Part shown: one piece after another, positions 18,154-62,000 of the stretch | Layout: every line of letters begins with the position of its first letter | How positions within the stretch are numbered: the first letter of the stretch is position 1 | IMG/VR virus record: IMGVR_UViG_3300021255_000131 | Location: 32,001 to 96,000 of that record | From: a virus | Taxonomy: Duplodnaviria > Caudoviricetes | DNA length: 64,000 bases | Strand: one strand, 5' to 3' | Made by a program: the position numbers and the translations under genes | Notes under the pieces: model-generated | Told to the model about the DNA's origin: nothing | Seen by the model: the letters and a program-made list of their open reading frames with translations, nothing else | Database searches by the model: none

Positions 18154-18657
18154 TTATTGATGTAGTTTGGGTTTAGCATTGGACGACGTGAGATGATAGA
18201 AATGATCATCCCGCGTCAGGATCTCTGACATCAGAGGTTTCTTTTCCCAGAAAGCTTTGAGCCTGGCGAAGCCCTGGTCGGCCACCCTGCCAATATCCGG
18301 ATCGGGCACGCGCTTGATGAAGAGCGCGGGCCCTGTCTGATAGCCGGAAATATCGCACGGGAACCAGAACAGTCCGCCTTCCGGGTAGTATTTGCGCATC
18401 TTCTTGTTCTTGCGCCGGCCTGTTTGATACATCGTATCCCGCGTGCGGTAGCAGGAGAGAAAATCGATCATCTCCTCATGCCCGGTCAGCGTGGTGACAA
18501 GGACCTTCGGCATGGCGCCCAAGGTATTGTCCGGCTGAACGACGCGCCAGGGGGCGCGGCTTTCCGCCGTGCCCCTGGTTTTGCAGAGCACGTAAGAGGG
18601 AACGATGTTGCCTTTGCGCATATCCGTTTTCTTTACAATGGCGAGGTAGTAATACAT
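18154..18657 (-). CDS. hypothetical protein
   Basis: 167 aa ORF with AAGGAGG, overlapping end of RNAP-1. Confidence 0.7.
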   Translation of the reverse strand: MYYYLAIVKKTDMRKGNIVPSYVLCKTRGTAESRAPWRVVQPDNTLGAMPKVLVTTLTGHEEMIDFLSCYRTRDTMYQTGRRKNKKMRKYYPEGGLFWFPCDISGYQTGPALFIKRVPDPDIGRVADQGFARLKAFWEKKPLMSEILTRDDHFYHLTSSNAKPKLHQ

Positions 18658-21404
18658 ACTTCCTCCTTGCGGCGCAGACGTTCTTTGACTTTGCTGGCGC
18701 GTTTAACAAGCTTCCTGTGCTTCGCCTGGCATTCCGGGCAGCGCTTTTGCCGACCATTGAGCCGGTGGCACCACTTGCCGCACTCGACACAGGTGAAGAA
18801 CCCTTTGACTGCGGCGGAACAGCCGTGCTCTTCCGTCCAGACGGGCAGCTTTATGCCGCAGTGAACGCAGGTAACGCAAGTCATGAGATTCAGCTTGAGA
18901 TTGCGTAATGCAATGTCTCCAAACACACGCCAGAACATTTGCTTATGCGCGGCTTTATCTTTTCCGTCGCCGACGAACAGGGTGTACGCGATGGACGGAT
19001 ACGCGGCTTCAATGCTGCCGCACAGCTCAGTGAGCTTATCTGTAATCAGTTCTTTGAGCGCCTCATAGCCGAAGGCGTTGTACATTTCCATAACGTCCAT
19101 CATGGACGCTCCGTCAATTCTGGATTGCAGATTGCTGTCATCGAGCCGGGAAAAAAGTTCAACGGCTTCTGTGTTGATCTCCGTGACCGGAGCTTCCAGA
19201 AACATCTCGCCGTTGAAGGGTGGAACGCCTACTGCGTTTAAGTTGATGTTGCCGATATTATCAAATAAAGCGCAAAGCCTGTTCATGGTAGAATTGTTGG
19301 CTTTCGCGCACTGCTTCTTCTTTTTCGTCGTGTCTGCATGGCGGCCGTTCTTGGAGAACTGGAACCAGTAAGGCATCTTACCGTTCGGGCCGCCGATTGC
19401 TTTATTGATTTTCGCAGAGACTTCCGGATAATTGGTATAACCGTTGACGGAACCTGTTTTGGCCCCGTCGATCGTGAGATTGTTGAAGTAACACAAAAGC
19501 GCGGCAGACTGTAAATCAGGATGCGGTCTGTTCCAAAGCCTGGTCAGGGCGTTTGAAATCTGGCCGATGCCACTGTAGTCATGCGCGCGCTTGACCCCGT
19601 GAAACAATGTTTCAAGGGAAATCTGTTCGGACGCGGCCTTGGTCGCGTCATAGAACAGGGGAACGATATCATACTCTTGAATGTTTCGCTTGGCGTTGTC
19701 GATCAGAATACGGTCTGAGACAACGTTGAGCTGATCTCCGTCTACATCGAACTGAAGAATTCTTGATATCAGATCATGACAGCTGGTGTAAATGCCGTTC
19801 GTGTAAAACCACGAGGCGATTTCCGGATCGTGATTGACGGTGCGAATCGCATGCTCGTTGAAAAGATGCGGACTCCTTAGAACATCTACCTCGTCTACAT
19901 CCCTGAACGGACGGGCAAAGACTTCGCCGTTTTTCAACAAACCTTCCGGCTCCTTCTGACCGAGAAACCAGTATTGGCAAGCGGCATACAGATCCGGAAT
20001 GGCAAACAGGCGTTTGTTTTTACAGCGTATTTTGCCGGACTTGGCGTCGAGCGTCCAACGCTTTTTGATTGCCTTCAAAGACTCTCTGGAATAAGCTTCG
20101 CGCAACAGCTCCGGATATAAAGTAAGCGCCTGACGATACGGGACTTCCGAATAATCGTCGGCGCCGAGCGCGTGAAGCATGTGTTCCCGGTCGTTCGAGA
20201 GGCTTTTGATCCGATCGTAGGTAGGCCTGACAAACTCCTTCAGCTCATTCTGTGGAAAATTTTGAAGCGTTTGAATGAACTGATAGTTGAGCTCGCTGTT
20301 GCCAATGTACGCCTCTTCCATGTTGGTGCGGCCAAATGTACAGCCGCAGGTCTTGAAGAAGGATTTGTACTCATCCCAGCTGTCGTAGTACTTCCACAGC
20401 TTGAGTTGTGACTTGGTGAAGACGACCTGTATGTCTTCCGCGCGGAGATCGTGCATCTGACCCCAGACGTCTTTCAGCTTTGCCTCGCAGCCGTTTTCCT
20501 CGCAGAAGCGTAGAAAATTAAAACTGCACAATAGGCCCTTTAAAAATGGACCTCGTATCATGAAATTCCATCTGGATACAGAAGGCAGCATCATGCCCGC
20601 GCCGTCACAATGGTTGATAACGACGGTCCGTTCGCCGCGCTCGATGGTGTAATCCGGACTGATATAATCCATCAGGCCGGTGACGGGAGCTTCAAAGTCG
20701 TCCACGACGATGCAGCGGTCAATATCGAGCGGGTAAGGATCCGTTGCCGAGCATGGCAGGGCCAAATACGCCATGAGCTTACTCGTATTAATTCCACCCC
20801 GTTCGTTGATGCGCTCCCAGCTGAGGCCGCACATAATGCGCGGCTCGATTCTTGACCAGGCGTCGTCTGAGAGAAACTGCACCTTGTCCGTTCTGAGCTG
20901 GCCGGCCGAAGCCGTAGAAAAGCGATAGCGTTTGACGGAAACGGAGCCATCCTCGTTCAGCACAGACATATTAAAACCCTGAAGGATGATCTGTCTTAAG
21001 ATATCTTCTGATTTCCACTTGATGATAATCTTGTCGAAGGTGATGTCGTTTTCGTTCAGGCCGAGGGCGCGGGTTTCTTCTGATACGAACTCGGCGATGC
21101 GGCGGTTGGGTTTGAGCGTTTTCCACGTGACGCCCGGCGGGCGTTCTGGAAGCGTTGGATCGAGGACGGCGCTGAGATTCACCGTCCGGGGGACATGCTC
21201 GTGCGAAGCGATGAGCTTGGCGAGAGCGTTTTGCTGTACACGTTTTTCATTGACGATTTCCTGACGGTTAGGTACGGTATCATTCAGCATGCGTTTCAAA
21301 CGGGCGATGTTGAAGAAAATCACGCGCTCCTCGTCAGTCAGCAGATCGTACGTAGAGAAACTTGCGAGGCGGATTTGACTGCTCAGATAAGATTTGTTAC
21401 TCGT
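18633..21404 (-). CDS. YonO-like single-chain DNA-dependent RNA polymerase (RNAP-1)
   Basis: ASAGQLR, HCDGAGM..FMIR..KG, LNYQFIQTL, LRSPHL, LQFDVDGD (19734-19748), IDGAKT, C-terminal Zn ribbons; start uncertain (ACG 21404 vs ATG 21452). Confidence 0.88.
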   Translation of the reverse strand, partial: TSNKSYLSSQIRLASFSTYDLLTDEERVIFFNIARLKRMLNDTVPNRQEIVNEKRVQQNALAKLIASHEHVPRTVNLSAVLDPTLPERPPGVTWKTLKPNRRIAEFVSEETRALGLNENDITFDKIIIKWKSEDILRQIILQGFNMSVLNEDGSVSVKRYRFSTASAGQLRTDKVQFLSDDAWSRIEPRIMCGLSWERINERGGINTSKLMAYLALPCSATDPYPLDIDRCIVVDDFEAPVTGLMDYISPDYTIERGERTVVINHCDGAGMMLPSVSRWNFMIRGPFLKGLLCSFNFLRFCEENGCEAKLKDVWGQMHDLRAEDIQVVFTKSQLKLWKYYDSWDEYKSFFKTCGCTFGRTNMEEAYIGNSELNYQFIQTLQNFPQNELKEFVRPTYDRIKSLSNDREHMLHALGADDYSEVPYRQALTLYPELLREAYSRESLKAIKKRWTLDAKSGKIRCKNKRLFAIPDLYAACQYWFLGQKEPEGLLKNGEVFARPFRDVDEVDVLRSPHLFNEHAIRTVNHDPEIASWFYTNGIYTSCHDLISRILQFDVDGDQLNVVSDRILIDNAKRNIQEYDIVPLFYDATKAASEQISLETLFHGVKRAHDYSGIGQISNALTRLWNRPHPDLQSAALLCYFNNLTIDGAKTGSVNGYTNYPEVSAKINKAIGGPNGKMPYWFQFSKNGRHADTTKKKKQCAKANNSTMNRLCALFDNIGNINLNAVGVPPFNGEMFLEAPVTEINTEAVELFSRLDDSNLQSRIDGASMMDVMEMYNAFGYEALKELITDKLTELCGSIEAAYPSIAYTLFVGDGKDKAAHKQMFWRVFGDIALRNLKLNLMTCVTCVHCGIKLPVWTEEHGCSAAVKGFFTCVECGKWCHRLNGRQKRCPECQAKHRKLVKRASKVKERLRRKEEVCITTSPL

Positions 21405-21484
21405 GAAACCACCTCTTTTGAAAAGTAAAGCGGCATGTGCCGCTGGGTGCATCCGCGCTGACTTTTGCGCGGATGTAGGAAATA

Positions 21485-21680
21485 TTGAAAACCGGAGGCA
21501 TCGTCTCTAAGTTGTTCTACTCCGAGGATCGTTTCGGCGGTGGCTGCCACCAGGCGTAGCCTTGGTGGCAGCCTGAGCCGAAACGAGCCGAGAAATCGTA
21601 ATTTAAGACGAAGCTCCTGATGACATCAAGAGTGCTAAACCCGCAGGTAAAGCCAGTGCACGATGCCTCCGGTTGTTCAA
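21485..21680 (-). ncRNA. retron-like msr-msd ncRNA
   Basis: 15-bp perfect inverted repeat 21490-21504/21660-21674, unpaired G right after the 5' arm (21659), short stem-loop, long hairpin 21529-21586. Confidence 0.7.
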
Positions 21681-22832
21681 TCAGTTTGCATAACGCAATG
21701 CTTGTTTAATCATTACGTTTTTGTCGTACCACCAGATGTGAAACTTCCCTTTGGTATGATCGAACACATGCTTGGTGAATTCTGGTTCGATATAGCTGTA
21801 GTAGCTCCAGCGGCCGATGAAAGATTTGACCCAATCTTTTGACAGCGTTCCGCGGAAATTCTTGACGAAGTTGTACATATCCGCTTTGAAGAGCCGTTTC
21901 ACCTGATGGCCGATGGTGATCTTGTGATCGGCGTTCAGCATGTAGCCGAGATTCCAGTTCGCGCCTTTGATGCTGCCATATCTGGTCTTTTTGCTGTTCA
22001 GTTTATAAGGATAGCCCAGCCTGAACAGGAGACCAAGGACATCGTGGTGGATGATGTATTGTTTGACGTGGCTGAAGTCGCCATAGCCTGAGATCAGACA
22101 ATCGTCCGCGTAGCGGGTGTAGACATAGCCCGATCCCAGGACCCTGGTCAGCTCATAATCAAATGGGATCATGATCAGATTGGTGAGCATGGGGGAAAGC
22201 GTTGTGCCCTGCGGCAAACCGCCACGCAGGAACGCGTAGCTCAACGCCTTTTCGAGCTTTGCTTTTCTGGCCGGATCCTGCATAAATGTATTGAACGGCC
22301 AAATTGCGCCCAGAATATTCATGACTGTCGCGAGCGAAGTCGAGCCAAAGAAATCATGAAAATCGGTCTTCAGGAAGTAACTGCTGTTCTGATGCCGCTG
22401 GATGCACTTGTAGGTGTTGCGATAGCGGACGTAAGCGTAGGCCGCGCTGTGATACAGCGCGAAGAACCGCCTGCGGAGAATTTTCTCGATTTCTTCATGA
22501 ACTTTTCTGAGCTCAGGCTTGGGATCATCGATGGGCCTGACGCCGCCGGAACGCTTTGGGATGGTGTAATGCTTGTACCAGCTTTCCGGATCGCCGGTGA
22601 CGGTTTTCTCCGCCAGATCGATCACGGCGTCGAGCGCGGTCTCGGCCGCTTCCGCGTCAAAAAGGTAGGAGAATTCCTGCGGGACGGTGTTGGTTTTGAT
22701 TGTTTTCGTCGCTGCGGAGCCGTACATGAAGTTGCTTTCAGCGCCCGGAATCTCAGGATCAGTGTCCATCAGAAGAGACATGTATATTTGTTCTTCGTTT
22801 GTTTTGCCAAAGAGGCGCCGCGTAATGTACAT
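21681..22832 (-). CDS. reverse transcriptase, retron-like
   Basis: IPKRSGGVRPI, AYAY, KTDFHDFF, GLPQGTTLSP, YTRYADD, LNSKKT, NLG in place of VTG. Confidence 0.9.
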   Translation of the reverse strand: MYITRRLFGKTNEEQIYMSLLMDTDPEIPGAESNFMYGSAATKTIKTNTVPQEFSYLFDAEAAETALDAVIDLAEKTVTGDPESWYKHYTIPKRSGGVRPIDDPKPELRKVHEEIEKILRRRFFALYHSAAYAYVRYRNTYKCIQRHQNSSYFLKTDFHDFFGSTSLATVMNILGAIWPFNTFMQDPARKAKLEKALSYAFLRGGLPQGTTLSPMLTNLIMIPFDYELTRVLGSGYVYTRYADDCLISGYGDFSHVKQYIIHHDVLGLLFRLGYPYKLNSKKTRYGSIKGANWNLGYMLNADHKITIGHQVKRLFKADMYNFVKNFRGTLSKDWVKSFIGRWSYYSYIEPEFTKHVFDHTKGKFHIWWYDKNVMIKQALRYAN

Positions 22833-22842
22833 TTTAACTCCT

Positions 22843-23514
22843 TTACAGGGCGAGAACGTCCCAGGTTTCCGTATTGATCAGGATGGTTTTCTTGATGGTT
22901 TTCTTCTTGACGAAGTCAAGAAAGTTGACGACGCCGCAGGTGACGATCATACGAACGGTGGCGGCGACGCCCAGTGTGACGCGGCACGCGGACATCGGCG
23001 TCTCCTGTGCCGCTTCCTCATGCGTGAATTGCATTGAAGCGATGAACGCTTCTTTCTGCTTTTCATTAGACCAGTCCGCCGCGTAATGCTGCGCGTCGGT
23101 CAGGCGTGTTCTGAAATCGAACATAGCCTTGATGAACGGATTGCTCTTGTTCTCTTCAGCAATCTTACGGCGCAGCTCGATATTATCAACGCAGAGGAAG
23201 ACATAGCCGCTCAGCTTCTGATTGGTGTAGCCTTTGTCCGCGACGCGCAGAGATTCCGCGATTTCCGGGTTAATGGCCACAAGATGATCAGCCAGGGCTG
23301 TCACCTTTTCTTTGCCGATGTCCGCCGAAGTAAACATCTGGTTAACGATGTTCTTGGGCTCAACGTAATCGAAATCATAGAGCGTGATGTCCTTGAGCCC
23401 GTAACGAACAAGCAGCTCCGCAAGCGTAGAGCCTACGGAGCCGCAGCCGATGATATGGATACGGCCTTCCGCCATGGAAGGCTGAAAGAAGTCATAGCTT
23501 TTCGACAGATCCAT
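22843..23514 (-). CDS. ThiF/E1-like adenylyltransferase
   Basis: IIGCGSVGS, DFDYVEPKNIVNQ, IGKEK, LCVDN, candidate catalytic Cys in TPMSAC. Confidence 0.9.
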   Translation of the reverse strand: MDLSKSYDFFQPSMAEGRIHIIGCGSVGSTLAELLVRYGLKDITLYDFDYVEPKNIVNQMFTSADIGKEKVTALADHLVAINPEIAESLRVADKGYTNQKLSGYVFLCVDNIELRRKIAEENKSNPFIKAMFDFRTRLTDAQHYAADWSNEKQKEAFIASMQFTHEEAAQETPMSACRVTLGVAATVRMIVTCGVVNFLDFVKKKTIKKTILINTETWDVLAL

Positions 23515-24344
23515 TACGAATAACTCCTTCCGTACGGATAGCCGCGACCGTAAGGCGCCGTGCCATCGTCAAAAAGATCGTCGTAATCTTCGTACGGGTC
23601 CTCAGCGGCCTTTTTTTGCTTTTCCTTTTCCTTTTTCTCTTTCTTTCCGCCGTTGATAACCGTACCTGTAAAGACCGTTTTTTTAACCCTGGCCTGCGCG
23701 GCCTGAATGAAACTCGTTTTGGTGTAGGTGTTGTCCGTGCCGCCGTAGTCGAACACGATGGAGAGATCGATATCCTTCGTTTCATACATGACGTTGTTCG
23801 GGATATCGTAGATAGCGCTGCTGATTTCACCCTTCTTGTTCCAGATCTGGAAAATCCAGGCTTTATCAGGATCAGACGCCTTCATCAGATTCGCTCGGTG
23901 CGTCATATCGGTCGAGGAAGGGAACACGGCCATATTGACATGACTGTGACCGTGAAAGAACATATGATCCGCCTGGTCCTGTGTGAGATGCTGCAGGAAC
24001 ATCGGGTAGCTGTTTTCGCCCTCGTAGACGGTGTTGACGGTCGTGCCGGTCACCTCCTGATCGTACACGAGGACGTCGTAGACGAGCCAGGTTCTGTCGC
24101 TGGTCTTGCGTACCAGGGCGTGCCAGCCGACCTCAGAATCGAATTTCTGAACGAGCAGCAGCATCTTGATGTACGCTTCCGCGGAATATGAGATGGTGGC
24201 GCGTTCTTCCGGCAGCGCGTCGCGGGACGCGAAGCTACGGGTGAAGGTGAAGTGTCCGTCGGACAGACGAGCCGTCTCGAGCTCCTTCAGGAACTCCTGT
24301 CTCATTTTCTCTTTATCGGCTTCGGTAATTGTAATCGGTTTCAT
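23514..24344 (-). CDS. JAB/MPN+ metallopeptidase
   Basis: EVGWH...HGHSHVNMAVFPSSTD (E...HSH-x7-S-xx-D). Confidence 0.88.
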   Translation of the reverse strand: MKPITITEADKEKMRQEFLKELETARLSDGHFTFTRSFASRDALPEERATISYSAEAYIKMLLLVQKFDSEVGWHALVRKTSDRTWLVYDVLVYDQEVTGTTVNTVYEGENSYPMFLQHLTQDQADHMFFHGHSHVNMAVFPSSTDMTHRANLMKASDPDKAWIFQIWNKKGEISSAIYDIPNNVMYETKDIDLSIVFDYGGTDNTYTKTSFIQAAQARVKKTVFTGTVINGGKKEKKEKEKQKKAAEDPYEDYDDLFDDGTAPYGRGYPYGRSYS

Positions 24345-25693
24345 TTCTGCTCCTTCAGTTTCTCCAACGCTTCTTTTGCGTTATATTCGTTGCCGTCCTT
24401 GTCGATGAGGACTTTTTCTTTCTTGGTGGTGGCGAAGAGCCGCTTCATAAACGGGATAAAGGTGACGCCTGTCTCTGCCAGGTTGATAGACTGGCAGGAC
24501 GCGACGCACTGCTCAATGGCGCCGATATAGTTGCTGTTGCGGATCGCCGTTCTGATCGGGTCGCGGTAAGAACCGAGACACTGATGATATTGCAGATGCG
24601 GATTCGGAAGATACTGACGGGTCAGCTCTTCCGGATATTCGTAATTGCGGAAGACGGCCACGTCCGTGTTGAGCGCGTATATGGCGCACAGACGAATGCG
24701 GAAAACCGGATCATCCGAGAAGATCGCGTCCATCAGGAGTTTGCGGTCTTCTACCTTGCAGAAAGGCGGATCGGCGGTCATACGGTAGATAGAGCCGTTC
24801 GAGGAGGCACGGCGATAAAAGTCCAGGTCGAACCAGTCTGCGGTCGTCTTGACGTAGAATTTGATGGTGCCGTCGGAAACGTTGACAAGCTGAAGGTTCT
24901 TGTGCCGCTTGAAATAATCGACAAGCTCGGTGCTCTCGTTCTTCGGTCGGGCGAGCAGGGCTTCATATTTAATCGTCGCGTCGTTGACCTTCTGCACCAG
25001 GCGGGCGTATTCGGCGACATTATCTTCGAGCGCCGCCCGTGCGACCCGCAGGGTGTTGTTGGTTTCATCAATACTGCGTTCGAGCTCGACGTTGGCGAAG
25101 CGCTTAAGCAGGACTTCGTTCAGCTCGTTCTCAAGACCGGACTGACGGACCAGCTTCGCGATCATGGACTCGAAGTCTCCAGAGGTGCGCTTGGTCATGG
25201 AGAAGCATAACTTCTTCTCGTCATCGGTCAGCGGCTTTTCATCAAATGGCGTTTTGATAAACAGCGGGAGCAGCGACATAAGCATGTGCGTCTTGCGGGT
25301 ATCGAGCTCCTGCGAGAAGACGACCGCGCTGTTGATATCATGGTTGACGAAGATCTGGCAGCTCAGCCATTTCGAAAGATAGTTTTCGGCCTTTTCGAGC
25401 TTGGTGTAGGCGGGATGCGACGCGGCGAACGAATCGTCGGTCGTGTGAACGATATTGAAGGATTTCGGCAGCTGCGTGTCCGGGATCGGCCACGACTCCT
25501 TAATGCTTCTGAGGGTCAGGGTTTCGTCTTCCGGCAGCCTGTTAAACAAAAGAATCCTTGCCGTCGCGAGGCATGTGCTATCATCCGAATCGAACGGGTA
25601 ATGTTTATCGACGCTGATTCTGCTGAGGATTCCGTGTTCGTTGCCGAACGTGTCGGTCAGGCCGCGGACGGTATTGAATGTTGCGCTGAACAT
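24341..25693 (-). CDS. coiled-coil protein with putative C-terminal prokaryotic E2-like domain
   Basis: LPNPHLQYHQCLG motif resembles E2 HPN..C; position between Ubl and JAB/E1. Confidence 0.55.
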   Translation of the reverse strand: MFSATFNTVRGLTDTFGNEHGILSRISVDKHYPFDSDDSTCLATARILLFNRLPEDETLTLRSIKESWPIPDTQLPKSFNIVHTTDDSFAASHPAYTKLEKAENYLSKWLSCQIFVNHDINSAVVFSQELDTRKTHMLMSLLPLFIKTPFDEKPLTDDEKKLCFSMTKRTSGDFESMIAKLVRQSGLENELNEVLLKRFANVELERSIDETNNTLRVARAALEDNVAEYARLVQKVNDATIKYEALLARPKNESTELVDYFKRHKNLQLVNVSDGTIKFYVKTTADWFDLDFYRRASSNGSIYRMTADPPFCKVEDRKLLMDAIFSDDPVFRIRLCAIYALNTDVAVFRNYEYPEELTRQYLPNPHLQYHQCLGSYRDPIRTAIRNSNYIGAIEQCVASCQSINLAETGVTFIPFMKRLFATTKKEKVLIDKDGNEYNAKEALEKLKEQK

Positions 25694-25714
25694 AGTTACT
25701 CCTTTTGTTTAAGA

Positions 25715-25741
25715 GGCTGCCGCGAGTAAACCGCGGCAGCC
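25715..25741 (-). terminator. stem-loop between Ubl and E2-like genes
   Basis: ggctgccgcg-agtaaac-cgcggcagcc. Confidence 0.55.
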
Positions 25742-25749
25742 CTGAATGA

Positions 25750-26364
25750 TTACTGAATGGTGATGAAGCCCTTGATCTTCTCCTGATCCGCGTGGATGGA
25801 CGCGACGGCGTCAGCGAAGTTCTCCTCGATCTTGTTCAGATAGAGCAGGCCCATGCCGATCTTGTCGGTCAGCTGGGCTTCGATATCATTGTCGCGGTCG
25901 ACGCACATTGTGATGGTGGCGTAGCCTTCCTGGTTCGTGGCCTCGGAGAAGGTGGCGCCCTTATCGTTGATAGAGCCGGAGGAGCGGGTGGTCACGTCGA
26001 TGCCGAAGAGCTGCTCGTTCTTCTTATCGTCCTTGTAGAGCTTCAGAGCCTCGGGGCGATACTTCTTCGCGAGCTGAATATCCTCGAGCTTCAGCGCGGA
26101 GGTGACGACAGCGGCTTCACCGATAACGGTCACGGTGGCGGCGTTATCCGCCTTCACGACGACGGACAGGTAGCAGGCATCCTCGATACCGTGCTGCGCG
26201 AATGTCTTATCGAGATCGCCGGGACGCAGGGAGCATCCGTCGATCTGGGTCATGCCGACGGAATAGTTGACGCGGTTCTCGTCGAGAACTTCGCGGACGG
26301 TGGCGTCTTCAGAAACGTTGATGGTTTTGCGGCCGGAATTGGTGATGAGGGTGATCTGGATCAT
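25750..26364 (-). CDS. ubiquitin-like (beta-grasp) domain fused to a C-terminal domain
   Basis: MIQITLITNSGRKTINVSEDATVREVL...IDGCSL..GDLDKTFAQHGI...YLSVVVKADNA; SD AAAGGAG before ATG 26364. Confidence 0.75.
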   Translation of the reverse strand: MIQITLITNSGRKTINVSEDATVREVLDENRVNYSVGMTQIDGCSLRPGDLDKTFAQHGIEDACYLSVVVKADNAATVTVIGEAAVVTSALKLEDIQLAKKYRPEALKLYKDDKKNEQLFGIDVTTRSSGSINDKGATFSEATNQEGYATITMCVDRDNDIEAQLTDKIGMGLLYLNKIEENFADAVASIHADQEKIKGFITIQ

Positions 26365-30274: not shown

Positions 30275-30509
30275 GTGATACCTCTTTCTGCCCGGCTAAC
30301 GGGCGTGATCAATATTGGCGTAAGCCGAAGTTTTAGAACCTGTAGCAGGTTCAAAATATATCGTTTAGCGCCGGAGCATTCGTCTGCAGCGCTTAACGAG
30401 CGTATTTGCCGGCCGCGGAAATTGTTTTCTTTTCCCGCAAACCTTTCATCATGGCTGCGGCCCGTCCCCGGGCCGCCCTGCTGGCGTAAAGACCAGCTGG
30501 GGAGGGGCG

Positions 30510-30689
30510 TCAGGCTTTCAATAAGCCGGTCGCAGGAAGCGGCGCTTTCTCGCCGAGATATTTGCTGAGCGTTCTGGCGATCTTGAGCCACGCTTCTCTG
30601 TCGTGTTCTTCCCTGGCGATCTTGTTGAGCACGCAGCCCATCGTCGGGTCGAGCTGCTTGGAGCCGTTGTAATACAAGCTTTTATCCAT
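30510..30689 (-). CDS. small hypothetical protein
   Basis: MDKSLYYNGSKQLDPT after AAAGGAG. Confidence 0.6.
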   Translation of the reverse strand: MDKSLYYNGSKQLDPTMGCVLNKIAREEHDREAWLKIARTLSKYLGEKAPLPATGLLKA

Positions 30690-36267: not shown

Positions 36268-39081
36268 TCAGAAGTCCATCCCAGCCAGCCAGGAAGGTAA
36301 TGCTGCCTTCCTGGCCTTTTCTTCGTGCGCTTCAACGCATTCCTGGCGGAACGTCTTCTCCGGAATAACGGCGGGCAGTATGGTACGCTCCTGTTTGTTT
36401 TCAGCGAGGATATCGCCGAAGCACTCCAGAATCGCCATCAGGTGACGCGCGGCGAACTTCTTGTTCCATTTGTCGTGGGCATGCGCCACATGCTGACGCA
36501 GAATCGCGGCGGCAGTCCAGCGAGCCAGCTCGTCGTCGGACATGTTGCCCTTATTGACACCTTGCATGAACGCAAGCGTCTCGTCGCGGACGTACTTGTA
36601 AGCGCTCAGCATTGCCTCTTCGTATTCAGCCGCTTCAAACGACGCTTTCGCGATCTTCTGGACTGCGCTGCTCAAAGTTTCGAACAAGAAGTAGATCGAA
36701 TATTTTGTGTCTGCTGCGAAGACCTCCTTGCCGAGCATGTCGTTGTATTCCTTGACCTTTTCAGCAGGAAGCACGTCGTTGCGCACCATGCGCACGTTTG
36801 CGCTGCAGCCGCCAGGCATCGCGATTTCCCAGCGGTAATCGATCTTACTGAAGTCCGGCGCCCACTCGGAACCGCCGATGATCAGGTTGACCTGGTGGCC
36901 GAACCGATCTACGATGGACTCTGATTCGGGCAGGGTTTTCTCGTCCCATCTCTGGTCGTTCCAAGGAGTTTCATCACAGTGTTTTGCAAACCGCTGGTTG
37001 TAAGGCATCGCGTTATAGTTTTGCCCGACGGTGCGAGCGATTTCCCGGAGCGCCTGCGGAAGCACGCCCGTCTTGATGTAGTCCAGAATCAGGATGGTCA
37101 GCACGTGCGGGATCGCCGCAGTTTCCAGGATGCCGCTGATGACGGAAGGATCCATGTCGATCCTGCAATCGTTCAGGATCTTGGTGCAGAGGTTGGAGTA
37201 GACGCCAACCTCGTTGTACCGTTCAGCGTCGATCATCATCTGAGCAGTCTGATTCTGCCACTCGTCCGTCTTGGGCAGCTTGCCCTTGGGTGCTTTGTCG
37301 TGGTCGAAGATCACGCAGGGCGGATTGACGCGATTGATGACTCGCTCCATCAGGGAGACGAGCAGCGGATTCGAGGACCAGAAGCCCTCGTCTCCGTCGT
37401 TGTCACCGTCCCAGTAGCCGGACAGAACAGTGCTGTTCCACGGCAGGATCATCATGTTGCCGCAAACGGCGAGCTCATCGTGCACCTCTACGTGAAGCAC
37501 ACGAGCGTTCAGCAGGTTGGCGGGATGGCGAATACCATAGATTTTCCGGCCATTTTCTACGCCGGTGACGCAGCAGGTCTTGCTGCTGTTGAAGACGCCG
37601 ATCTTCTCCTTGGCCGGGTCCTTGCCAAAGACCCAGACGTCGATCAGGGCGTAGGGGTCCATAGCAATATATTCATAATGAGATTCTTCGATTGCAGGCG
37701 AGATCATTGCGTCTGCGTACTTGTTGTTAAACAGGTCTTCCAGGTGGTTGATGATGTCTTGATTTGCCACATAGTCCGGGAAAGCGCGGAAGAACTTGGC
37801 GGCGTTGCCGCATTCCTCCTCGTCGGCCCAGGGTTTTTGTAGTTCCTTTACACAGCCTTCAACTGTTTTCAGCTGCTTTACGCAAATGGCCTTAGACGTA
37901 CCGAGCTTCCTAAGCTCGGCGTTGCTGGTGTAGACCAGCTCCTGCAGCGCCTGGCGGGAGAGATTTCGTTTGTCGCCTTCTGCCTTGTTGGCGAAGCCGC
38001 ACACACGCAGCTCATCGATGCCGAGGGTTTCGAACGTGGTCCGATAGTCGTCGAGGCTATCAAACCATTTGAGGCCTTTGCAGCACGACTCGCTGAGAAT
38101 GATATAGATACCATCAGTCGAGCGCCAAATGCCCTGATAATCTTTGATCTTATCCGGTATATTCTCGACGATGGCGACGACGGCCATTGTCTTGTTGGTG
38201 CCGAGGCGACCCTGAAGGGAGAGGAAATTCTTGGTATCCTCGAGGCTACGAGCGATGATTACGGACTGACCGTCGGCGATTGTTGCGTCCTCTTCGGATT
38301 CGGGAACGTATTTGATTGCGCCGGTTTTGGCGTCAATTTTCAACACGTTGGTATACTTCAACTGCCAGTTGAAGTCCTTAACGATGATCGCGTTCTTCAA
38401 CGCTATCTTCTTCAAACCAAACCGACTGACCGGCACGCTGCCGGAGAACAGCGTGCTAAGTACTTTGTTGTATTCTACGGGGTTGGTGCCCCTGTCGAAC
38501 TGCTCCTTGGTGCGGAGCAGCGCGAGCTCCTTCTTGTATTTGGCCTGAATGTCGACGCGAATAAGAAGAGATTTGCCGACCTTCAGGTAGGAAGGCGTTG
38601 AACACAAGTATTTCCAAACAAGCTGGCCAGACTGGATGCCCAGCTTCTGCAGGTTCTTGCCGACCTGCTTTTTGATTTGGCCGACAAGGAAGAAATATTG
38701 TTTTGCTTGATCCGCTGTGAAGTGGATTTCACAATTGAATTTCAGAAGGTTGTATAAGTGGTGTTCGAGTACGACGACGCTGTCGTCGAATTTATCGTAC
38801 TCAATGTGGAGCATATCAGCTCCAGCGGATTCATCCATTGTAATGACCTTGGGGTCATCAATGGAAATGGTGTAGGGAACGGTGCGCTCCCGCTCCAGCT
38901 TCAGGATTTGCTGGGCGGCAGAGATCATTTTCTGGCAGATGTTGTCTTTCGAGTATAACGCTTTATTGAAGATGTCTGTCTCTTCCTTCGGGAAGAAGGC
39001 GGCCTGGCTGAAGGACCAGGTCATATAATGTTGTTTATTCAGGGCGGGAGCTTCAATGGCGCGTTCGATAACCTTAGACAT
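36268..39081 (-). CDS. second YonO-like single-chain RNA polymerase (RNAP-2)
   Basis: IADGQS...LQGR..NK, LSRQALQEL, IRHPAN, WDGDNDGD (37390-37410), VGVYSN, LDYIKTG. Confidence 0.75.
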   Translation of the reverse strand: MSKVIERAIEAPALNKQHYMTWSFSQAAFFPKEETDIFNKALYSKDNICQKMISAAQQILKLERERTVPYTISIDDPKVITMDESAGADMLHIEYDKFDDSVVVLEHHLYNLLKFNCEIHFTADQAKQYFFLVGQIKKQVGKNLQKLGIQSGQLVWKYLCSTPSYLKVGKSLLIRVDIQAKYKKELALLRTKEQFDRGTNPVEYNKVLSTLFSGSVPVSRFGLKKIALKNAIIVKDFNWQLKYTNVLKIDAKTGAIKYVPESEEDATIADGQSVIIARSLEDTKNFLSLQGRLGTNKTMAVVAIVENIPDKIKDYQGIWRSTDGIYIILSESCCKGLKWFDSLDDYRTTFETLGIDELRVCGFANKAEGDKRNLSRQALQELVYTSNAELRKLGTSKAICVKQLKTVEGCVKELQKPWADEEECGNAAKFFRAFPDYVANQDIINHLEDLFNNKYADAMISPAIEESHYEYIAMDPYALIDVWVFGKDPAKEKIGVFNSSKTCCVTGVENGRKIYGIRHPANLLNARVLHVEVHDELAVCGNMMILPWNSTVLSGYWDGDNDGDEGFWSSNPLLVSLMERVINRVNPPCVIFDHDKAPKGKLPKTDEWQNQTAQMMIDAERYNEVGVYSNLCTKILNDCRIDMDPSVISGILETAAIPHVLTILILDYIKTGVLPQALREIARTVGQNYNAMPYNQRFAKHCDETPWNDQRWDEKTLPESESIVDRFGHQVNLIIGGSEWAPDFSKIDYRWEIAMPGGCSANVRMVRNDVLPAEKVKEYNDMLGKEVFAADTKYSIYFLFETLSSAVQKIAKASFEAAEYEEAMLSAYKYVRDETLAFMQGVNKGNMSDDELARWTAAAILRQHVAHAHDKWNKKFAARHLMAILECFGDILAENKQERTILPAVIPEKTFRQECVEAHEEKARKAALPSWLAGMDF

Positions 39082-39102: not shown

Positions 39103-39225
39103 TTGACCGCGTTTTCATTTTGTCGTATAATAGTGAACGGGGTGCGTTGATGAGTTAACGTTACTACAGTGGTATAATGTTTTCACCTCCCTGCCGGGTG
39201 CTGCTGACACCCGGCTTTTTGTTTT
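39103..39225 (+). ncRNA. candidate small RNA with sigmaA promoter and terminator
   Basis: TTGACC-17-TATAAT (39103-39131); gccgggtg/cacccggc stem + T tract at about 39193-39225. Confidence 0.55.
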
Positions 39226-39257
39226 ATGTGAAGAGCCTAAGGCTCGCTGAGGTGTGC

Positions 39258-39680
39258 TTATTGGCAAACAGAATCTATATATCTCAAGTTATCTTTTGTT
39301 GTTTTGCTATCTTCGGCAGAAATACAAAATGGAAAAGAGCAGCCTGCCATATTGTCTAAATATTCTGCATAATCTTTATCATGTTCTTCGGACAATATTT
39401 TTTCTTTTACTGCTATTTCTTTAGCGATAGAATATTCTTTGTCTTTGAATGTGCCGATGTTTTTAATGTTGTTGTTTATAGTTATAACAATATACTCGCG
39501 GTTCAACTCATCATACTCACCGAAGTACCATTCTCCATCAAGCATCGCTGCTATGCTTGATATTTTGAATGTTCTGGGCAACGCGCCCATTGAGATGAAT
39601 CCTTTTGCCATGGCAGAGGCGGCTTCGAGGCCGATGGTGCTCCAGGCTTTGTTGATTGCTCCGATTCTCCAATTTTTCAT
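39258..39680 (-). CDS. hypothetical early protein
   Basis: AAGGAGG SD, AT-rich. Confidence 0.7.
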   Translation of the reverse strand: MKNWRIGAINKAWSTIGLEAASAMAKGFISMGALPRTFKISSIAAMLDGEWYFGEYDELNREYIVITINNNIKNIGTFKDKEYSIAKEIAVKEKILSEEHDKDYAEYLDNMAGCSFPFCISAEDSKTTKDNLRYIDSVCQ

Positions 39681-39778
39681 AAGGTTTCCTCCTTCTGCTG
39701 TTTAACGCACAGCTGCATATTATTCGAGCAAGCGCCCGTATCTGCCCACCGCATGGATGGGCAGAAGCTGGTGCTTGA

Positions 39779-40468
39779 TTACTTTATGGCCGTGTATTCG
39801 CCACGGTGCTTCTCGATACAAGATAGTAATTCTTGCATCGAATCGAATTGCCAATCGATATCACATCCCATTAGTCCATCCCAGCCTCCGACATCTGTTG
39901 TGCTATCTCCGCGCATGACATATTTTTCGCGGATCTTGTAAACACGACCACTTCCTTCATAATGGCAATAGTTGTGGCAACACACTTGGCCATAAGATAC
40001 GGAAATACTTCCTTCCGTATAAGACCATTTGAATTTGCCTAAAAGCTGCCGATTTAATCTGTCTGCAACAGCTTCGCACGTTCTTTCCAGATATTCGCTT
40101 CCAATCTTTTTCCATGCTTCAAAGAAACCTTCGTTGTAGAATCTTGAAGTTTCTTCAATCCATGCGTCGTACTCCTTTCCATGCGTTTCTTGCTCGTAGA
40201 AAAGACTCTTATAGAAATTAATTATTCTGTATCCGCAACCTCTCGCATAATACTCATCAAGGTCAACGGAAATGAATATTGCTTGTTGCAGCTTAAACCG
40301 TTCGTACTTGAATTTATCGGACTCCACATCGAAGAAATCAATTTCTTCTTTGTTTCCGCAATATGTTTTTCCGACGTAAAATATTTTTGCAAAGTACACC
40401 GTGTCGTCGTTCTCGTCCACATAGGACTTGGTTGCCCACCACGTGAGCTTTTCGAATACTTGTTTCAT
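39779..40468 (-). CDS. hypothetical early protein
   Basis: AAGGAGG SD, AT-rich. Confidence 0.7.
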   Translation of the reverse strand: MKQVFEKLTWWATKSYVDENDDTVYFAKIFYVGKTYCGNKEEIDFFDVESDKFKYERFKLQQAIFISVDLDEYYARGCGYRIINFYKSLFYEQETHGKEYDAWIEETSRFYNEGFFEAWKKIGSEYLERTCEAVADRLNRQLLGKFKWSYTEGSISVSYGQVCCHNYCHYEGSGRVYKIREKYVMRGDSTTDVGGWDGLMGCDIDWQFDSMQELLSCIEKHRGEYTAIK

Positions 40469-41247
40469 AATGTTTCCTCCTTGCGGCTGTGCCGATAATC
40501 GTTGTTTGAAGGTTAAATTTAAGAATCTATAATCAGCATATTGATTAAGATTCTTAACCTTCGATTGAATAATATATCATGACGGCCAAAGTGTAAAGGA
40601 CAACTTTTGCCGTTGATACAGGGAACATCAGCGAACAAATCTGATGTGTTATCAGGATAATTCGCCGATGTGCGAGGACTCGTCAAGCGATTTGTCAAGA
40701 TGGAACTTTTCATGAAGCCAACTTAACAAATGCTTAACATTTTGCTCGATACAGTTTCGCGTTCCGTTTCGGCTCATGCCATCATCGGGTCTCGGACTCT
40801 TACCGAGACGACGGAATTGCCCTTGACGGCAGCGGTTTTTTGTGCTACCATCAAGGGCGGAGGGGTTTACGGTCGCGTATAACGACGTGACCGACGCGTA
40901 GAGACGTTCGTCAACGTCTCTGAGTACCCGTTAAGGTACTCAACCTCGGCTGTGCGAGCCGAGAGCCAACGGATCTTGCGCACTTGACCGAGTGCGCAGG
41001 CTAATGCATACAGCGTGTCAGCGCTGTCATGCACCAGGCGCTGTTTGTCAGCGCGTCCTGGCTTGGCGCCTGAGTCCACCATGAAGCCAAGGTTATTCAA
41101 TGGACATTGCATCCGCCGGGCACCCCACCCATTTACGCTGAAAACATAAACGAGGGAGAAAACCCAACAAATTTGTTCTTCTCTAAGTCCCTTCTCTAAG
41201 TCTCTTCTAACCGTGCTCAGCACGGTCTTTTTTATTGCCAAAAAACA

Positions 41248-41283
41248 TGTCGACATTCAAGAATGGATATATATGGAAAGAGA
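41248..41283 (+). promoter_or_regulatory. 28-bp conserved element, copy 3, at head of morphogenesis operon
   Basis: TGTCGACATTCAAGAATGGATATATATG-GAAAGAGA, about 50 bp before first late gene. Confidence 0.75.
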
Positions 41284-59011: not shown

Positions 59012-62000
59012 ATGGCAGACGAAATTGAACTATCAGTACATATAGACAATCAACAAGCACTTATGTCGTTGACAGAATTAGAAGTCAAAGCCGGTGAGAT
59101 GAGTGAAAGTGTTCAGCAAATGCAATCTGGTATGACAACGCAGCTTCCCGGTTATGCTGAAGGTATGGCGTTTCAGTATTCTCAATTTCAAGACAACCTG
59201 CAACGACTCATCGACTTAAGGCGAAGTATAGATACTGCATCCAGCAGTTTCGATGCAGATCGTTTGACAGAATCATTTACAAGGTCTTTAAAAACTATCG
59301 AAAACGTTTATAAAGATTTTACCGAAAACTTTCAATTTTCCAAAACGATTGAAAGCAATCTGTCAGGCATGGGAGACGCTGTTAAGAACAATCTTCTTTC
59401 GTCTCTCAGAGAATTACAACCTGAATTGATTGGTGAACTACGGAAATTCGCAGCTTCGGCAACGCAGGCAGTCGGAGCACAAACAGATAAAAGCTTATTG
59501 AATATGTTTGCCGGCAGCGACGCATTTAAGAGACTACAGAGACAATTAACACAACGTACTTCTGCTTTTGGCGGTTCTGACGACAGCTCTCTGCATAATC
59601 TTCAAACTCTTGCAAAATTAAGTATGCCATTTGCTGTCGCTCAGTATAACAGACAACAAATCGTTGACTGGTTTGATAAGACCAATGCTCCCGAAACTTT
59701 TAGACAAATGCTTCCTAAAAGCTTTCAGACGATTCCGGCTTACCTTAAAAATACTCAACTCAGACAACGCGGGAGCAATGCTGCAGAAAACAGGCATTTG
59801 ACAAACGATGAGAAGAAGGCTTTAGAAAGTATTATAACATCTGATTCGTTTGCCCTTGATGCCGCAGTTTCTCAGGGTATCGCCAGAAAGCATAACGGAC
59901 GTATTTTTCTAAACGAATATACAACCAGAGAAATGATTAACGCTATGGCCGGACGTGTCATGCACGACATCGTCAACGGCGCTCAGGGCGAAGCGCGTTA
60001 TGGAATTACTGATGTTGAAGATCCAGATGTCTTTTATAAGATCATTCGCAAAAACAATAAGATGCTGACTGGCAGTTTACAAACTGCCAGAGTGATGAAC
60101 GATCGTTTTGGATCATGGTTGAATCCCGGATATTATGAAGCGTCTAAAGGTCGGTTTTCTGAAGGCGGCAAAGATTTAGGCACCGTTCGATTCGCACCGA
60201 GAATCGATACGCGCGCTTTTGCTGAATATACGCTCGATGAAATGAAACACGGCGCACAGTTCGACGGGCAACCAGTGACGGAAGAAGGAAGACCAGTCAG
60301 GCCAGAAGACTACCATCAGATCACATTGCGAGACAGTATTCATCACAGAAAATTACGCGCAACGCAGGCCGGTGACAATGTTGAACATAATGGTTTCAGC
60401 AGAAACGCTATCTACTTAAAAACTCCAGAAGAAGCTTACGATTATGAAACTTCACCTGAAAGATTAAAAGAAATAGAAAAAGATTTAGCCGAAAGAATTG
60501 AAAATGGTTATACTGTCAATGGCAGACATTATTCATACGTCAGGCACAATGCAACTCATGCCGAATTTGTTCTCGACGATATTATCAAAGAATTAGGCGG
60601 CGGGGATTTTGAAAAAGGCAGAAACGTATTTTTAAACGGTGCGCAAAGACGATATACGGATCCTGTCAAATTTCATAAGGCGTTAGATTATCAAAATAAG
60701 ACAGCTACCGACTCTCAAAGGATTGCTGACTTATATGGATCAGACTTACGTGGCGCAAAAGTAGTTGTGTCTAACCTTAAAGAGCTCGGTATGGACGGCT
60801 TCAATTTAATAAGTGATGAAATTGTTCCGGCCAGCTTTCAAGGCAGAGAAAATGAGGCAGCCGAAAAAGCTACATATGTTAAGTTCAATATGGCCGGCTT
60901 ACGAAAACTTTATAAAGATAAAATTGATAGTCAAGGCAATCTTGTTATCCCTAAAGCTGCGCCTGGCGGACAAGATTTAGTTATCGGGCCGGATGTTACA
61001 ATGATAGAAGACCAGGCCAACATAAAAAACTTTGATAGCCTGTATCGTGACAAAAAAGGAAATCTATTACCTCTTGAAGCAATTAATGCCGCCAGAAGCC
61101 AAGTTATGCAGCGCGGGGATCTTTCAGCCAAAGTAACATATGAAGGCGCTAATACTGAAAAAAGATGGTTGTCTCATCAGATGGTTCAGACTTTAGGTCC
61201 TGTTTTTACTCCTGAACTTCGGAAATACTTTATGCAAAATGTTTTCGATGAATTAGCTTCGCTTGGTGACGACGAAACTGTACGTAGGAAATTATTTGGC
61301 GGGCAAAATATTGATTTAAATTCTCCTGCTGCTCAGCAGACTATACAGGATTACAGAGATTCTATTTTTGAAAGAATATCTCAAGGTGACCTTTTGGGTC
61401 CTGAAGGCGGTATTCAATACGGAATGGCTGCGCCGTGGGTTCCCAGCATCGTCAACAAAGCATTGAAGCGTGCTGGAGTTTCGCTAACAAAAGAGCAGGA
61501 AAACGCTGCAATCGACGAAAACAACGTTTTATTCATGAACATGCTTGCCGATACGCTGGGCATTGTTCGCGCTCCGTATTCAGCAGAAGGCAACATTGTC
61601 GCCGGTAATGAAGCAGTAAAAGATAATTTTAAAGCATTGGTAAAAACGCTGGGCCTTGACCCGAATGGTTTATATATGGCGCCTGGCGCTCCAATGCTCA
61701 GCTTTATGCAAACAGAAGACTTTGACGGCGACATTAATGCTATCATGGACTTAAGCGGCCAAGGCGTTAGCCGGAATAATCCACGCTTTGCTGCCGCCAT
61801 GAATAAGCTAATGACAGACGCTCAAGCGTGGTACCAAAAAAACATTGTCGAAAGATCCGGCAGAACACAAGAAGAGCAAGAAGCATTAAAAGCTCAACGT
61901 ACCATTCAAGCTGCTAATCAGCCTGGTGCCGTGTTCGACATGTTTGATAGTAAAACCAACGCACACGAAATCATTGAAGGCGCGCAAGCCGGGCAAAAGA

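What the first reader, a model, noticed from the sequence alone, without database searches (positions are those of the whole stretch)
18633..61732. Three divergent YonO-like RNA polymerases in one genome: possible polymerase cascade
Seen: three ORFs (18633-21404, 36268-39081, 59012-) share the ordered motifs DG / (Q,I)xR..K / LxxQxxQxL / RxP / DxDGD. Known: SPbeta YonO is a single late-gene RNAP. Inference: virion RNAP transcribes early genes including RNAP-2 (near the start of the left arm), RNAP-2 transcribes middle genes including RNAP-1, and RNAP-1 serves replication and late genes. No sigma factor gene was recognised in the window.
Basis: partly seen in the sequence, partly recalled or inferred. 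Interest (0 to 1): 0.88.

Follow-up and report, generated by a model that had tools for sequence, protein, structure and literature searches.

The report
Three YonO-type RNA polymerases, one tape-measure-fused
A 111-kb phage from ruminant-gut metagenomes encodes three single-chain RNA polymerases of the SPbeta YonO type, one of them inside its giant tail tape measure protein, so it probably brings its own transcription enzyme into the cell and then runs a staged, largely self-contained gene-expression programme.

Summary
The window is part of a complete 111,048-bp viral genome with SPbeta-like head and tail genes.

- **RNAP-1** (18633-21452, minus strand) is a clear YonO orthologue: 36.8% identity to SPbeta YonO, E 1e-123.
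- **RNAP-2** (36268-39081, minus strand) is a fast-evolving YonO paralogue: hhalign 99.8%, E 2e-30.
- **The third ORF** is the start of a 5,918-residue tape measure protein. Residues 400-1119 fold (pLDDT 87) as a two-barrel RNA polymerase, with Z 14-18 to RDR2, QDE-1 and P23-45 gp64. They are YonO relatives by profile comparison (94%, E 9e-8), and the catalytic residues are invariant across 39 homologues.

The same trio occurs in three other distant phage genomes. SPbeta, Perkons and D-1873 each have one YonO. No sigma-70 domain was found in the genome.

A tape-measure-fused virion polymerase plus a non-virion polymerase is published for Thermus phage P23-45 (Chaban 2024). This fusion shows no detectable sequence relationship to gp96 and there are three polymerases, so I class it as a new variant of a known kind.

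The proposed order of the cascade is untested. I found no promoter motifs, and no RNA run was listed for this DNA. This scan has already noted tape-measure-slot polymerases in at least 87 other genomes and three-polymerase phages in at least two.

The parts
18633..21452 (-). RNAP-1: 939-aa orthologue of SPbeta YonO, a single-chain two-barrel DNA-dependent RNA polymerase, with a C-terminal Cys-rich zinc-ribbon-like tail
   Evidence: tblastn gives 36.8% identity to SPbeta yonO, E 1e-123. phrog_8308 E 4.7e-176 and Pfam RdRP PF05183 at 23.9 bits against a cut-off of 23.8. It groups with YonO orthologues in the tree.
19734..19748 (-). DVDGD metal-binding motif of RNAP-1 (aa 569-573)
   Evidence: D569, D571, G572 and D573 are invariant in the YonO alignment.
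36268..39081 (-). RNAP-2: 937-aa fast-evolving YonO paralogue near the head of the leftward (early) arm
   Evidence: phrog_8308 E 2.3e-22 over the full length. BLASTP against RNAP-1 gives E 2e-5 with the DxDGD motifs aligned. hhalign of its family against the YonO family gives 99.8%, E 2.3e-30, 711 columns. A low-confidence model still hits RDR2 and QDE-1 first.
37390..37404 (-). DNDGD metal-binding motif of RNAP-2 (aa 560-564)
   Evidence: D560, D562, G563 and D564 are invariant in 8 homologues of 24-84% identity.
59012..64000 (+). First 1,663 codons of a 5,918-aa tape measure protein. The ORF continues about 12.8 kb beyond the window. The tape-measure core (Pfam PF10145) lies at aa 2025-2228, outside the window.
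   Evidence: Whole-genome ORF. PF10145 E 1.6e-23. The gene lies downstream of terminase, portal and major head genes. In relatives it is followed by Sipho_tail and Prophage_tail genes.
60209..62368 (+). RNAP-3: two-barrel RNA polymerase domain (aa 400-1119) embedded in the tape measure protein
   Evidence: AlphaFold2 model with pLDDT 87.2 and pTM 0.80. Foldseek: QDE-1 E 4.7e-10; all hits below E 0.02 are two-barrel RNAPs. VIA-align: Z 17.8 RDR2, 14.9 P74-26 gp62, 14.8 P23-45 gp64, 14.6 QDE-1, 10.2 gp96. hhalign against the YonO family: 94.4%, E 9.4e-8, 381 columns.
61718..61732 (+). DFDGD metal-binding motif of RNAP-3 (aa 903-907)
   Evidence: The three aspartates are invariant in 39 tape-measure homologues.
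39115..41256 (-). Five small ORFs between RNAP-2 and the divergence point of the two arms; candidate first-expressed genes (inferred only)
   Evidence: ORF map. No PHROG match for two of them. An HNH endonuclease and the large terminase gene lie immediately on the other side.

Best explanation
The phage encodes three enzymes of one family, the single-chain two-barrel RNA polymerases typified by SPbeta YonO. All three keep the catalytic residues.

Shown. RNAP-3 is the N-terminal globular domain (aa 400-1119) of the 5,918-aa tape measure protein, so it is built into the tail. RNAP-2 is a free-standing, rapidly evolving paralogue about 2 kb from the head of the leftward early arm. RNAP-1 is the YonO orthologue and sits within the replication gene block.

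Inferred. The tape measure protein is expelled into the cell envelope at infection, as in other long-tailed phages. Its polymerase domain meets the entering DNA and transcribes the first genes, which probably include RNAP-2. RNAP-2 then transcribes the early and middle leftward arm, including RNAP-1. RNAP-1, like YonO in SPbeta, transcribes the rightward structural and late arm. No sigma factor is needed.

The tape-measure fusion appears to have arisen from a YonO-type gene within this phage lineage, separately from the Thermus phage P23-45 fusion.
For: Identity of the three. Catalytic residues are invariant within each family. Same polypeptide as the tape-measure core: PF10145 in the same open frame. 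In a search of 1.84 billion proteins, the domain sits at about residues 400-1300 in the long hits (3.7-6 kaa); shorter hits look like truncated pieces. The trio is conserved in G005, G006:C1 and G006:C9, whose tape-measure domains are only 25-30% identical to this one. RNAP-2-type genes lie next to the arm divergence point in 3 of the 4 genomes. YonO orthologues and second polymerases fall on either side of one branch, SH-aLRT 99. SPbeta, Perkons and D-1873 have a single hit with the same profile. No sigma-70 r2, r4 or r4_2 domain occurs in the genome. Precedent for the mechanism: the gp96 virion RNAP transcribes pre-early genes, including the gene for the gp64 non-virion RNAP (PMC10770324). 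YonO transcribes the SPbeta late operon (PMC5467207). Lineage origin of the fusion: the tape-measure domain profile matches YonO (E 9.4e-8) and RNAP-2 (E 3.5e-4) but not the gp96 family (P 0.12).
Against: There is no expression, virion or activity data, and no RNA run was listed for this DNA. I found no promoter motif that separates gene classes. The physical genome ends, and therefore which DNA enters first, are unknown. The 107-bp terminal repeat lies inside the tail module and looks like a circular-assembly overlap. Sigma-70-like matches are enriched in 34000-43000 (22 against 9.1 +/- 3.1 in shuffles). The phage has a tyrosine integrase, so host RNA polymerase may take part, as it does for SPbeta early genes. 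The RNAP-2 model is poor (pLDDT 57.9) and its catalytic barrel is not modelled. The RNAP-3 model resembles clamp-bearing enzymes more than the flat gp96, and how such a domain would pass through a tail tube is unexplained.
Confidence: 0.55

Rival explanations
1. Host RNA polymerase starts the infection from sigma-A-type promoters at the head of the early arm, as in temperate SPbeta. RNAP-2 and RNAP-1 then divide middle and late transcription. The tape-measure-fused polymerase has another task, such as pulling the 111-kb genome into the cell by transcription or making a few transcripts that bias the lysis-lysogeny choice.
For: Sigma-70-like matches are enriched in 34000-43000, including minus-strand sites at 40597-40569 and 40686-40657 upstream of early ORFs. 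A tyrosine integrase is present, so the phage is probably temperate. SPbeta uses host polymerase for everything except its late genes (PMC5467207).
Against: Consensus matches are weak evidence, and many lie antisense inside genes. Conservation of a third, virion-borne polymerase with invariant catalytic residues across homologues of 22-61% identity argues for an essential catalytic role at entry, as shown for gp96.
Confidence: 0.25
2. One or two of the three are no longer polymerases. For example, the tape-measure domain could be a structural or DNA-binding plug, or RNAP-2 a regulatory pseudo-enzyme, leaving one working YonO as in SPbeta.
For: RNAP-2 evolves fast, with long branches, and folds poorly. 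The tape-measure domain is only distantly related to YonO.
Against: DxDGD, RxP and the basic residues of the second barrel are invariant in both families, while the rest of the sequence has diverged to 22-30% identity. All three are retained in four distant genomes.
Confidence: 0.08
3. One of the extra copies works on a different template or for a different purpose than gene transcription. It could be an RNA-dependent RNA polymerase like its QDE-1 and RDR2 structural neighbours, or it could synthesise primers for replication or counter-defence.
For: The best structural matches are eukaryotic RNA-dependent polymerases. RNAP-1 sits among replication genes: PolIII alpha, primase-helicase and NrdD.
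Against: YonO itself has the same structural neighbours yet is a DNA-dependent transcriptase (PMC5467207). The genome already has a Toprim-DnaB primase-helicase.
Confidence: 0.07

Closest known systems
Thermus phage P23-45 gp96 (tape-measure-fused virion RNAP) with gp64 (non-virion RNAP); Chaban et al., Nat Commun 2024, PMC10770324; PDB 8h2n, 8f72, 8f5m
   Same: A giant tape measure protein (5,002 aa there, 5,918 aa here) carries an N-terminal two-barrel RNA polymerase with a DFDGD motif. A free-standing second polymerase gene lies in the early region. The polymerases appear to derive from duplication within the phage lineage. Fold-level similarity: Z 10.2 to gp96 and 14.8 to gp64.
   Different: No detectable sequence relationship to the gp96 family (hhalign 0.5-3%; tblastn none). 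The domain is instead a YonO relative. The structural match is better to clamp-bearing enzymes than to the flat gp96. There are two free-standing polymerases rather than one. The phage is a probably temperate SPbeta-like phage of anaerobic gut Firmicutes, not a lytic Thermus phage. In P23-45 the late genes use host polymerase; here a YonO orthologue is available for them.
Bacillus prophage SPbeta YonO (Forrest et al., Nat Commun 2017, PMC5467207)
   Same: RNAP-1 is its orthologue (36.8% identity). In relatives the head and tail genes match the Pfam families YonB and YomU_Tube. DnaE-type polymerase is present, and the phage is probably temperate.
   Different: SPbeta, Perkons and D-1873 have one YonO and no polymerase domain in the tape measure protein. 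This clade has three.
Coliphage N4 programme (virion RNAP, then RNAP II, then host RNAP)
   Same: It works like it: an injected polymerase starts a three-stage relay of polymerases. This comparison rests on established knowledge and was not tested here.
   Different: The N4 enzymes are T7-like single-subunit polymerases, are packaged in the capsid, and the last stage uses the host enzyme. Here all three are two-barrel enzymes and the first is part of the tail.
crAss-like phage phi14:2 gp66 virion RNAP (PDB 6vr4), and QDE-1 and RDR2 cellular RdRPs
   Same: The same single-chain two-barrel fold: Z 7.5 for gp66 and 14-18 for QDE-1 and RDR2.
   Different: gp66 is a capsid-packaged 2,180-aa protein that is not fused to a tape measure. 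QDE-1 and RDR2 are eukaryotic RNA-silencing enzymes.

Membership tests
YonO-type single-chain two-barrel RNAP | Significant sequence homology to SPbeta YonO over most of the length | tested here: met
   RNAP-1: tblastn E 1e-123, 80% coverage. RNAP-2: hhalign 99.8%, E 2.3e-30, 711 columns. RNAP-3: hhalign 94.4%, E 9.4e-8, 381 columns covering both barrels; a shallow 3-sequence profile gave only P 0.033.
YonO-type single-chain two-barrel RNAP | DxDGD metal-binding loop preceded by RxP in the beta-prime-like barrel | tested here: met
   DVDGD, DNDGD and DFDGD, each with RSP, RHP or RAP 42-50 residues upstream. These are invariant within each family.
YonO-type single-chain two-barrel RNAP | Conserved basic residues in the beta-like barrel | tested here: met
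   The DG...(Q)xR...K block aligns in all three. R213, K220 and K273 are invariant in 39 tape-measure homologues and lie on predicted beta-strands 185-268. The assignment to the active site is inferred.
YonO-type single-chain two-barrel RNAP | Two double-psi beta-barrel fold | tested here: met
   RNAP-3: pLDDT 87, Z 14-18 to RDR2, QDE-1 and gp64 over about 500 residues, with only RNAPs among the significant hits. RNAP-2: inconclusive on its own; the model has pLDDT 58 and the catalytic barrel is unmodelled, yet the top nine hits are RDR2 and QDE-1. RNAP-1: not folded here.
YonO-type single-chain two-barrel RNAP | DNA-dependent RNA synthesis | not testable with these tools
   This needs purified protein and RNA-DNA scaffold assays.
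Tape-measure-fused virion RNAP (P23-45 gp96 type) | Polymerase domain and tape-measure core in one polypeptide, at the tape-measure gene position | tested here: met
   One 5,918-codon open frame with the RNAP domain at aa 400-1119 and PF10145 at aa 2025-2228. The gene follows the head genes and in relatives precedes the Dit- and Tal-type genes.
Tape-measure-fused virion RNAP (P23-45 gp96 type) | Sequence homology to gp96 of P23-45, P74-26, G20c or TSP4 | tested here: not met
   hhalign gives 3.2% (P 0.014, only the RxP-DFDGD stretch) and 0.5% (P 0.12). tblastn finds nothing in either direction. So it works like gp96 but is not a member of that sequence family.
Tape-measure-fused virion RNAP (P23-45 gp96 type) | Clamp-less flat architecture | tested here: inconclusive
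   The model aligns better to clamp-bearing gp64, QDE-1 and RDR2 than to gp96. The predicted linker between the barrels is about 130 residues, against 67 in gp96 (PMC10770324). Coordinates were not inspected.
Tape-measure-fused virion RNAP (P23-45 gp96 type) | Present in virions, and transcribes first-entering genes that include the non-virion RNAP gene | not testable with these tools
   Only gene position is available: RNAP-2 lies 2.2 kb from the arm divergence point, next to the HNH and terminase genes.

The most novel reading that the evidence does not exclude
A clade of temperate, SPbeta-like gut phages independently fused a duplicated YonO gene to the tape measure protein. It then added a third paralogue, giving a three-polymerase relay (tail-delivered, then early, then late) that needs neither host RNA polymerase nor sigma factors. 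Tape-measure delivery of a polymerase would then be a recurrent, convergent solution rather than a Thermus-phage oddity. The single YonO of SPbeta would be either the remnant or the precursor of such a system.
Probability: 0.35. Interest if true: 0.75.

Novelty: new variant of a known kind. Interest (0 to 1): 0.6.

Why it matters
In the literature I could search, the only described tape-measure-fused RNA polymerase is that of Thermus phage P23-45 and its close relatives. Their 2024 survey of viruses with two or more polymerases lists almost only phiKZ-like jumbo phages.

This finding is a second fusion with no detectable sequence relationship to gp96, derived from the YonO family. It is represented by at least 45 protein clusters at 50% identity (E <= 1e-30), and the long hits all carry the domain at about residues 400-1300. 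It comes with two further YonO paralogues, and the set is conserved in four genomes.

- It links the well-studied SPbeta/YonO system to the injected-polymerase strategy.
- It offers three paralogous minimal RNA polymerases from one genome for comparing promoter recognition and structure.
- It suggests that many 'hypothetical' N-terminal parts of giant tape measure proteins are enzymes.

It would also be a temperate phage that carries its own initiating polymerase, which raises the question of how repression and lysogeny are imposed.

Tried and rejected
- **Direct searches for RNAP-3.** Pfam, PHROG, PDB-sequence and phage tblastn searches gave nothing. BLASTP against RNAP-1 and RNAP-2 was not significant; the best match was E 0.19, on the LxxQxxQTL block. 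A shallow 3-sequence profile gave only weak hhalign scores. The link became significant only with a 23-sequence profile.
- **RNAP-2 structure.** The model from 8 sequences was poor.
- **Promoter discovery.**
  - Genome-wide repeated k-mers: none.
  - Enriched intergenic 9-11-mers: only the Shine-Dalgarno AAAGGAGG.
  - Repeats in 39000-41400: only ribosome-binding-site repeats.
  - k-mers shared by the divergent regions of the four related genomes: none convincing.
- **Hairpin elements.** Six hairpin-plus-CCATGRTG elements at 30454-33998 were considered as N4-style hairpin promoters. They are absent from the three related genomes, so they cannot be the conserved signal of a conserved polymerase.
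- **Prophage copies.** The first search of species-representative genomes found nothing. The second found only two phage-sized contigs in one Acutalibacteraceae MAG.
- **Sequencing runs.** No RNA holder was listed.
- **Terminal repeat.** I rejected the 107-bp repeat as the true genome ends because it lies inside the tail gene module.
Full report
**Setting**

The window is bases 32001-96000 of a complete 111,048-bp viral record with a 107-bp end overlap. Genes form two divergent arms that part at about window 41.2 kb.

- The leftward arm (minus strand) carries early and replication genes. It includes a DnaE-type PolIII alpha (8805-11981), a Toprim-DnaB primase-helicase (14088-15938) and the anaerobic ribonucleotide reductase NrdD (4772-6715).
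- The rightward arm begins with an HNH endonuclease, large terminase, portal and major head protein. It runs through the tail genes and wraps around the record.

A tyrosine integrase sits at the far end of the leftward arm, so the phage is probably temperate. Relatives carry the Pfam families YonB and YomU_Tube, which means SPbeta-type head and tail genes.

Three lines point to an anaerobic Firmicutes host. The ribosome-binding motif is AAAGGAGG. Two related phage-sized contigs are binned with an Acutalibacteraceae MAG. The host assignment is inference.

**RNAP-1**

The 939-aa ORF at 18633-21452 is an orthologue of SPbeta YonO. tblastn gives 36.8% identity over 80% of its length, E 1e-123, with similar matches to Perkons and Clostridium phage D-1873. 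It matches phrog_8308 at E 4.7e-176 and sits just over the Pfam RdRP cut-off. The DVDGD motif and the C-terminal cysteine pairs are invariant among YonO orthologues.

**RNAP-2**

The 937-aa ORF at 36268-39081 has no tblastn match in 50,697 phage records. It nevertheless matches phrog_8308 over its full length (E 2.3e-22). It aligns to RNAP-1 at 21% identity with the DxDGD motifs in register (E 2e-5).

Its family of eight sequences matches the YonO family by hhalign at 99.8% probability, E 2.3e-30, over 711 columns. DGDxDGD, RxP and the R..SRQ..Q block are invariant.

The AlphaFold model is poor (pLDDT 57.9). Even so, its only significant PDB matches are RDR2 and QDE-1.

**RNAP-3**

The third ORF is not a 1,663-aa protein. 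It is the start of a 5,918-aa open frame whose residues 2025-2228 are a Pfam PhageMin_Tail tape-measure core (E 1.6e-23).

A profile of residues 400-1300 searched against 1.84 billion proteins found 74 relatives (E <= 0.001). In the long hits (3.7-6 kaa) the matched part lies at about residues 400-1300; the shorter hits look like truncated pieces.

With a 23-sequence alignment, the domain folds at pLDDT 87.2 and pTM 0.80.

- **Foldseek against the PDB.** Every hit below E 0.02 is a two-barrel RNA polymerase: QDE-1 4.7e-10, RDR2 1.5e-7, P74-26 gp62 3.6e-5, P23-45 gp64 3.6e-4, phi14:2 gp66 2.3e-3 and P23-45 gp96 1.9e-2.
- **VIA-align.** Z is 17.8 for RDR2 (503 residues, 3.7 A), 14.9 for gp62, 14.8 for gp64, 14.6 for QDE-1 and 10.2 for gp96 (373 residues). 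After these come the beta-prime barrels of cellular polymerases at about Z 7.

At sequence level the deep profile matches the YonO family at 94.4% probability, E 9.4e-8, over 381 columns spanning both barrels. It matches the RNAP-2 family at E 3.5e-4 over 447 columns. It does not match the gp96 family (P 0.12; P 0.014 for the catalytic loop alone).

A six-frame search of the whole genome with the YonO profile finds exactly three places, the three ORFs, at E 0, 2.6e-6 and 6.3e-5.

**Is the trio a lineage feature?**

Yes. Three other phage-sized sequences each carry the same set:

- an IMG/VR genome of 108 kb (G005);
- two contigs of 100 and 136 kb in one MAG (G006:C1 and G006:C9).

Their tape-measure domains are only 25-30% identical to this one. 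Each has a giant tape measure protein with the domain, a YonO orthologue, and a second, more divergent YonO-like gene of 806-1058 aa. In three of the four genomes the second gene lies beside the point where the two arms diverge.

In a maximum-likelihood tree, YonO orthologues and 'second' polymerases sit on either side of one branch (SH-aLRT 99). The second group has the longer branches. That fits one old duplication followed by faster evolution of RNAP-2.

As a control, the same profile finds a single gene in each of SPbeta, Perkons and D-1873. The gp96-type domain is confined to ten Thermus phage records.

**How it probably works**

The anatomy is shown; the following steps are inferred.

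- Tape measure proteins of long-tailed phages leave the tail at infection (established knowledge, as discussed in PMC10770324).
- In P23-45 the fused polymerase was shown to be in virions. It transcribes pre-early genes at the first-entering genome end, including the gene for the second polymerase.
- In SPbeta, YonO transcribes the late structural and lysis operon.

Put together with the gene positions here, the best reading is a relay. The tail-delivered RNAP-3 transcribes the head of the leftward arm, which includes RNAP-2. RNAP-2 transcribes the rest of that arm, which includes RNAP-1. RNAP-1 transcribes the rightward late arm.

The HNH-terminase pair at the arm junction suggests that the packaging site is there. 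If so, the RNAP-2 end would be packaged last and injected first. This is inference from what is usual in HNH-dependent cos phages.

No sigma-70 domain is encoded.

**Weak points**

- I found no promoter motifs that separate gene classes.
- No RNA holder was listed among the public runs (recorded as tried, not as evidence).
- Sigma-70-like matches are enriched near the arm head.
- The phage is probably temperate, so host polymerase may well take part.
- The domain's resemblance to clamp-bearing enzymes leaves its passage through the tail unexplained.

**Comparison and novelty**

The arrangement works like P23-45 gp96 plus gp64 but is not a member of that sequence family. The fusion looks independent, made from a YonO-type gene. 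There are three polymerases rather than two, all of one family, in an SPbeta-like, probably temperate phage.

The supplementary survey in the P23-45 paper of viruses with two or more polymerases lists mainly phiKZ-like phages and a few siphoviruses with two. A full-text search found no other description of a tape-measure-fused polymerase. That search covers open-access papers and preprints only.

Within this scan, tape-measure-slot polymerases have been noted in at least 87 other genomes, and three-polymerase phages in at least two unrelated ones. The theme therefore recurs in uncultured phages. Those notes are leads and I did not test them.

**Verdict**

I class the finding as a new variant of a known kind, with interest 0.6.

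Noticed in passing
window 30454-33998, minus strand: Six elements made of a perfect 8-9-bp GC-rich stem, a purine-rich tetraloop (AGGA, GGGA or GAAA), 1-2 nt, then CCATGRTG (CCAGGATG in one copy). Most open only a 7-19-codon frame, and at least three lie just upstream of a separate Shine-Dalgarno and start codon. Stem sequences differ while pairing is kept. No such hairpins occur in the three related genomes. They could be lineage-specific promoter, processing or antitermination signals.
   Followed up: partly
L037-L040 (G006:C1 88169-91170) and L038/L039 (G006:C9 28080-31295): The YonO orthologues of the two related MAG contigs are each split into two ORFs at different positions, profile positions 639 and 550. 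The second break is close to the catalytic loop. This could be an intron, an intein, a homing-endonuclease insertion or an assembly frameshift.
   Followed up: no
window 54455-55105, plus strand: A GIY-YIG plus NUMOD3 homing-endonuclease gene sits inside the tail gene module. A relative has a GIY-YIG gene in the same neighbourhood.
   Followed up: no
window 21485-26364, minus strand: Earlier first-reader notes describe a Ubl-E2-JAB-E1 set joined to a retron-like reverse transcriptase directly downstream of RNAP-1. My only data point is that the 450-aa ORF at 24341-25693 gave no Pfam match at E <= 0.01.
   Followed up: no
L062 (genome 18938-20254, minus strand; outside the window): A tyrosine integrase (PF00589, E 1.9e-21) lies at the end of the leftward arm, so the phage is probably temperate. 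No serine recombinase was found.
   Followed up: partly
window 34000-43000: Sigma-70-like promoter matches (22 against 9.1 +/- 3.1 in shuffles) and terminator-like hairpins (19 against 9.4 +/- 3.8) are both enriched. Many lie on the plus strand, antisense to the leftward genes.
   Followed up: no
genome ends (coordinate 1 / 111048; outside the window): The 107-bp 'direct terminal repeat' falls inside the tail gene module, between the gene after the tape measure and a 965-aa tail protein gene. It is more likely an overlap from a circular assembly than the physical ends of the DNA.
   Followed up: no
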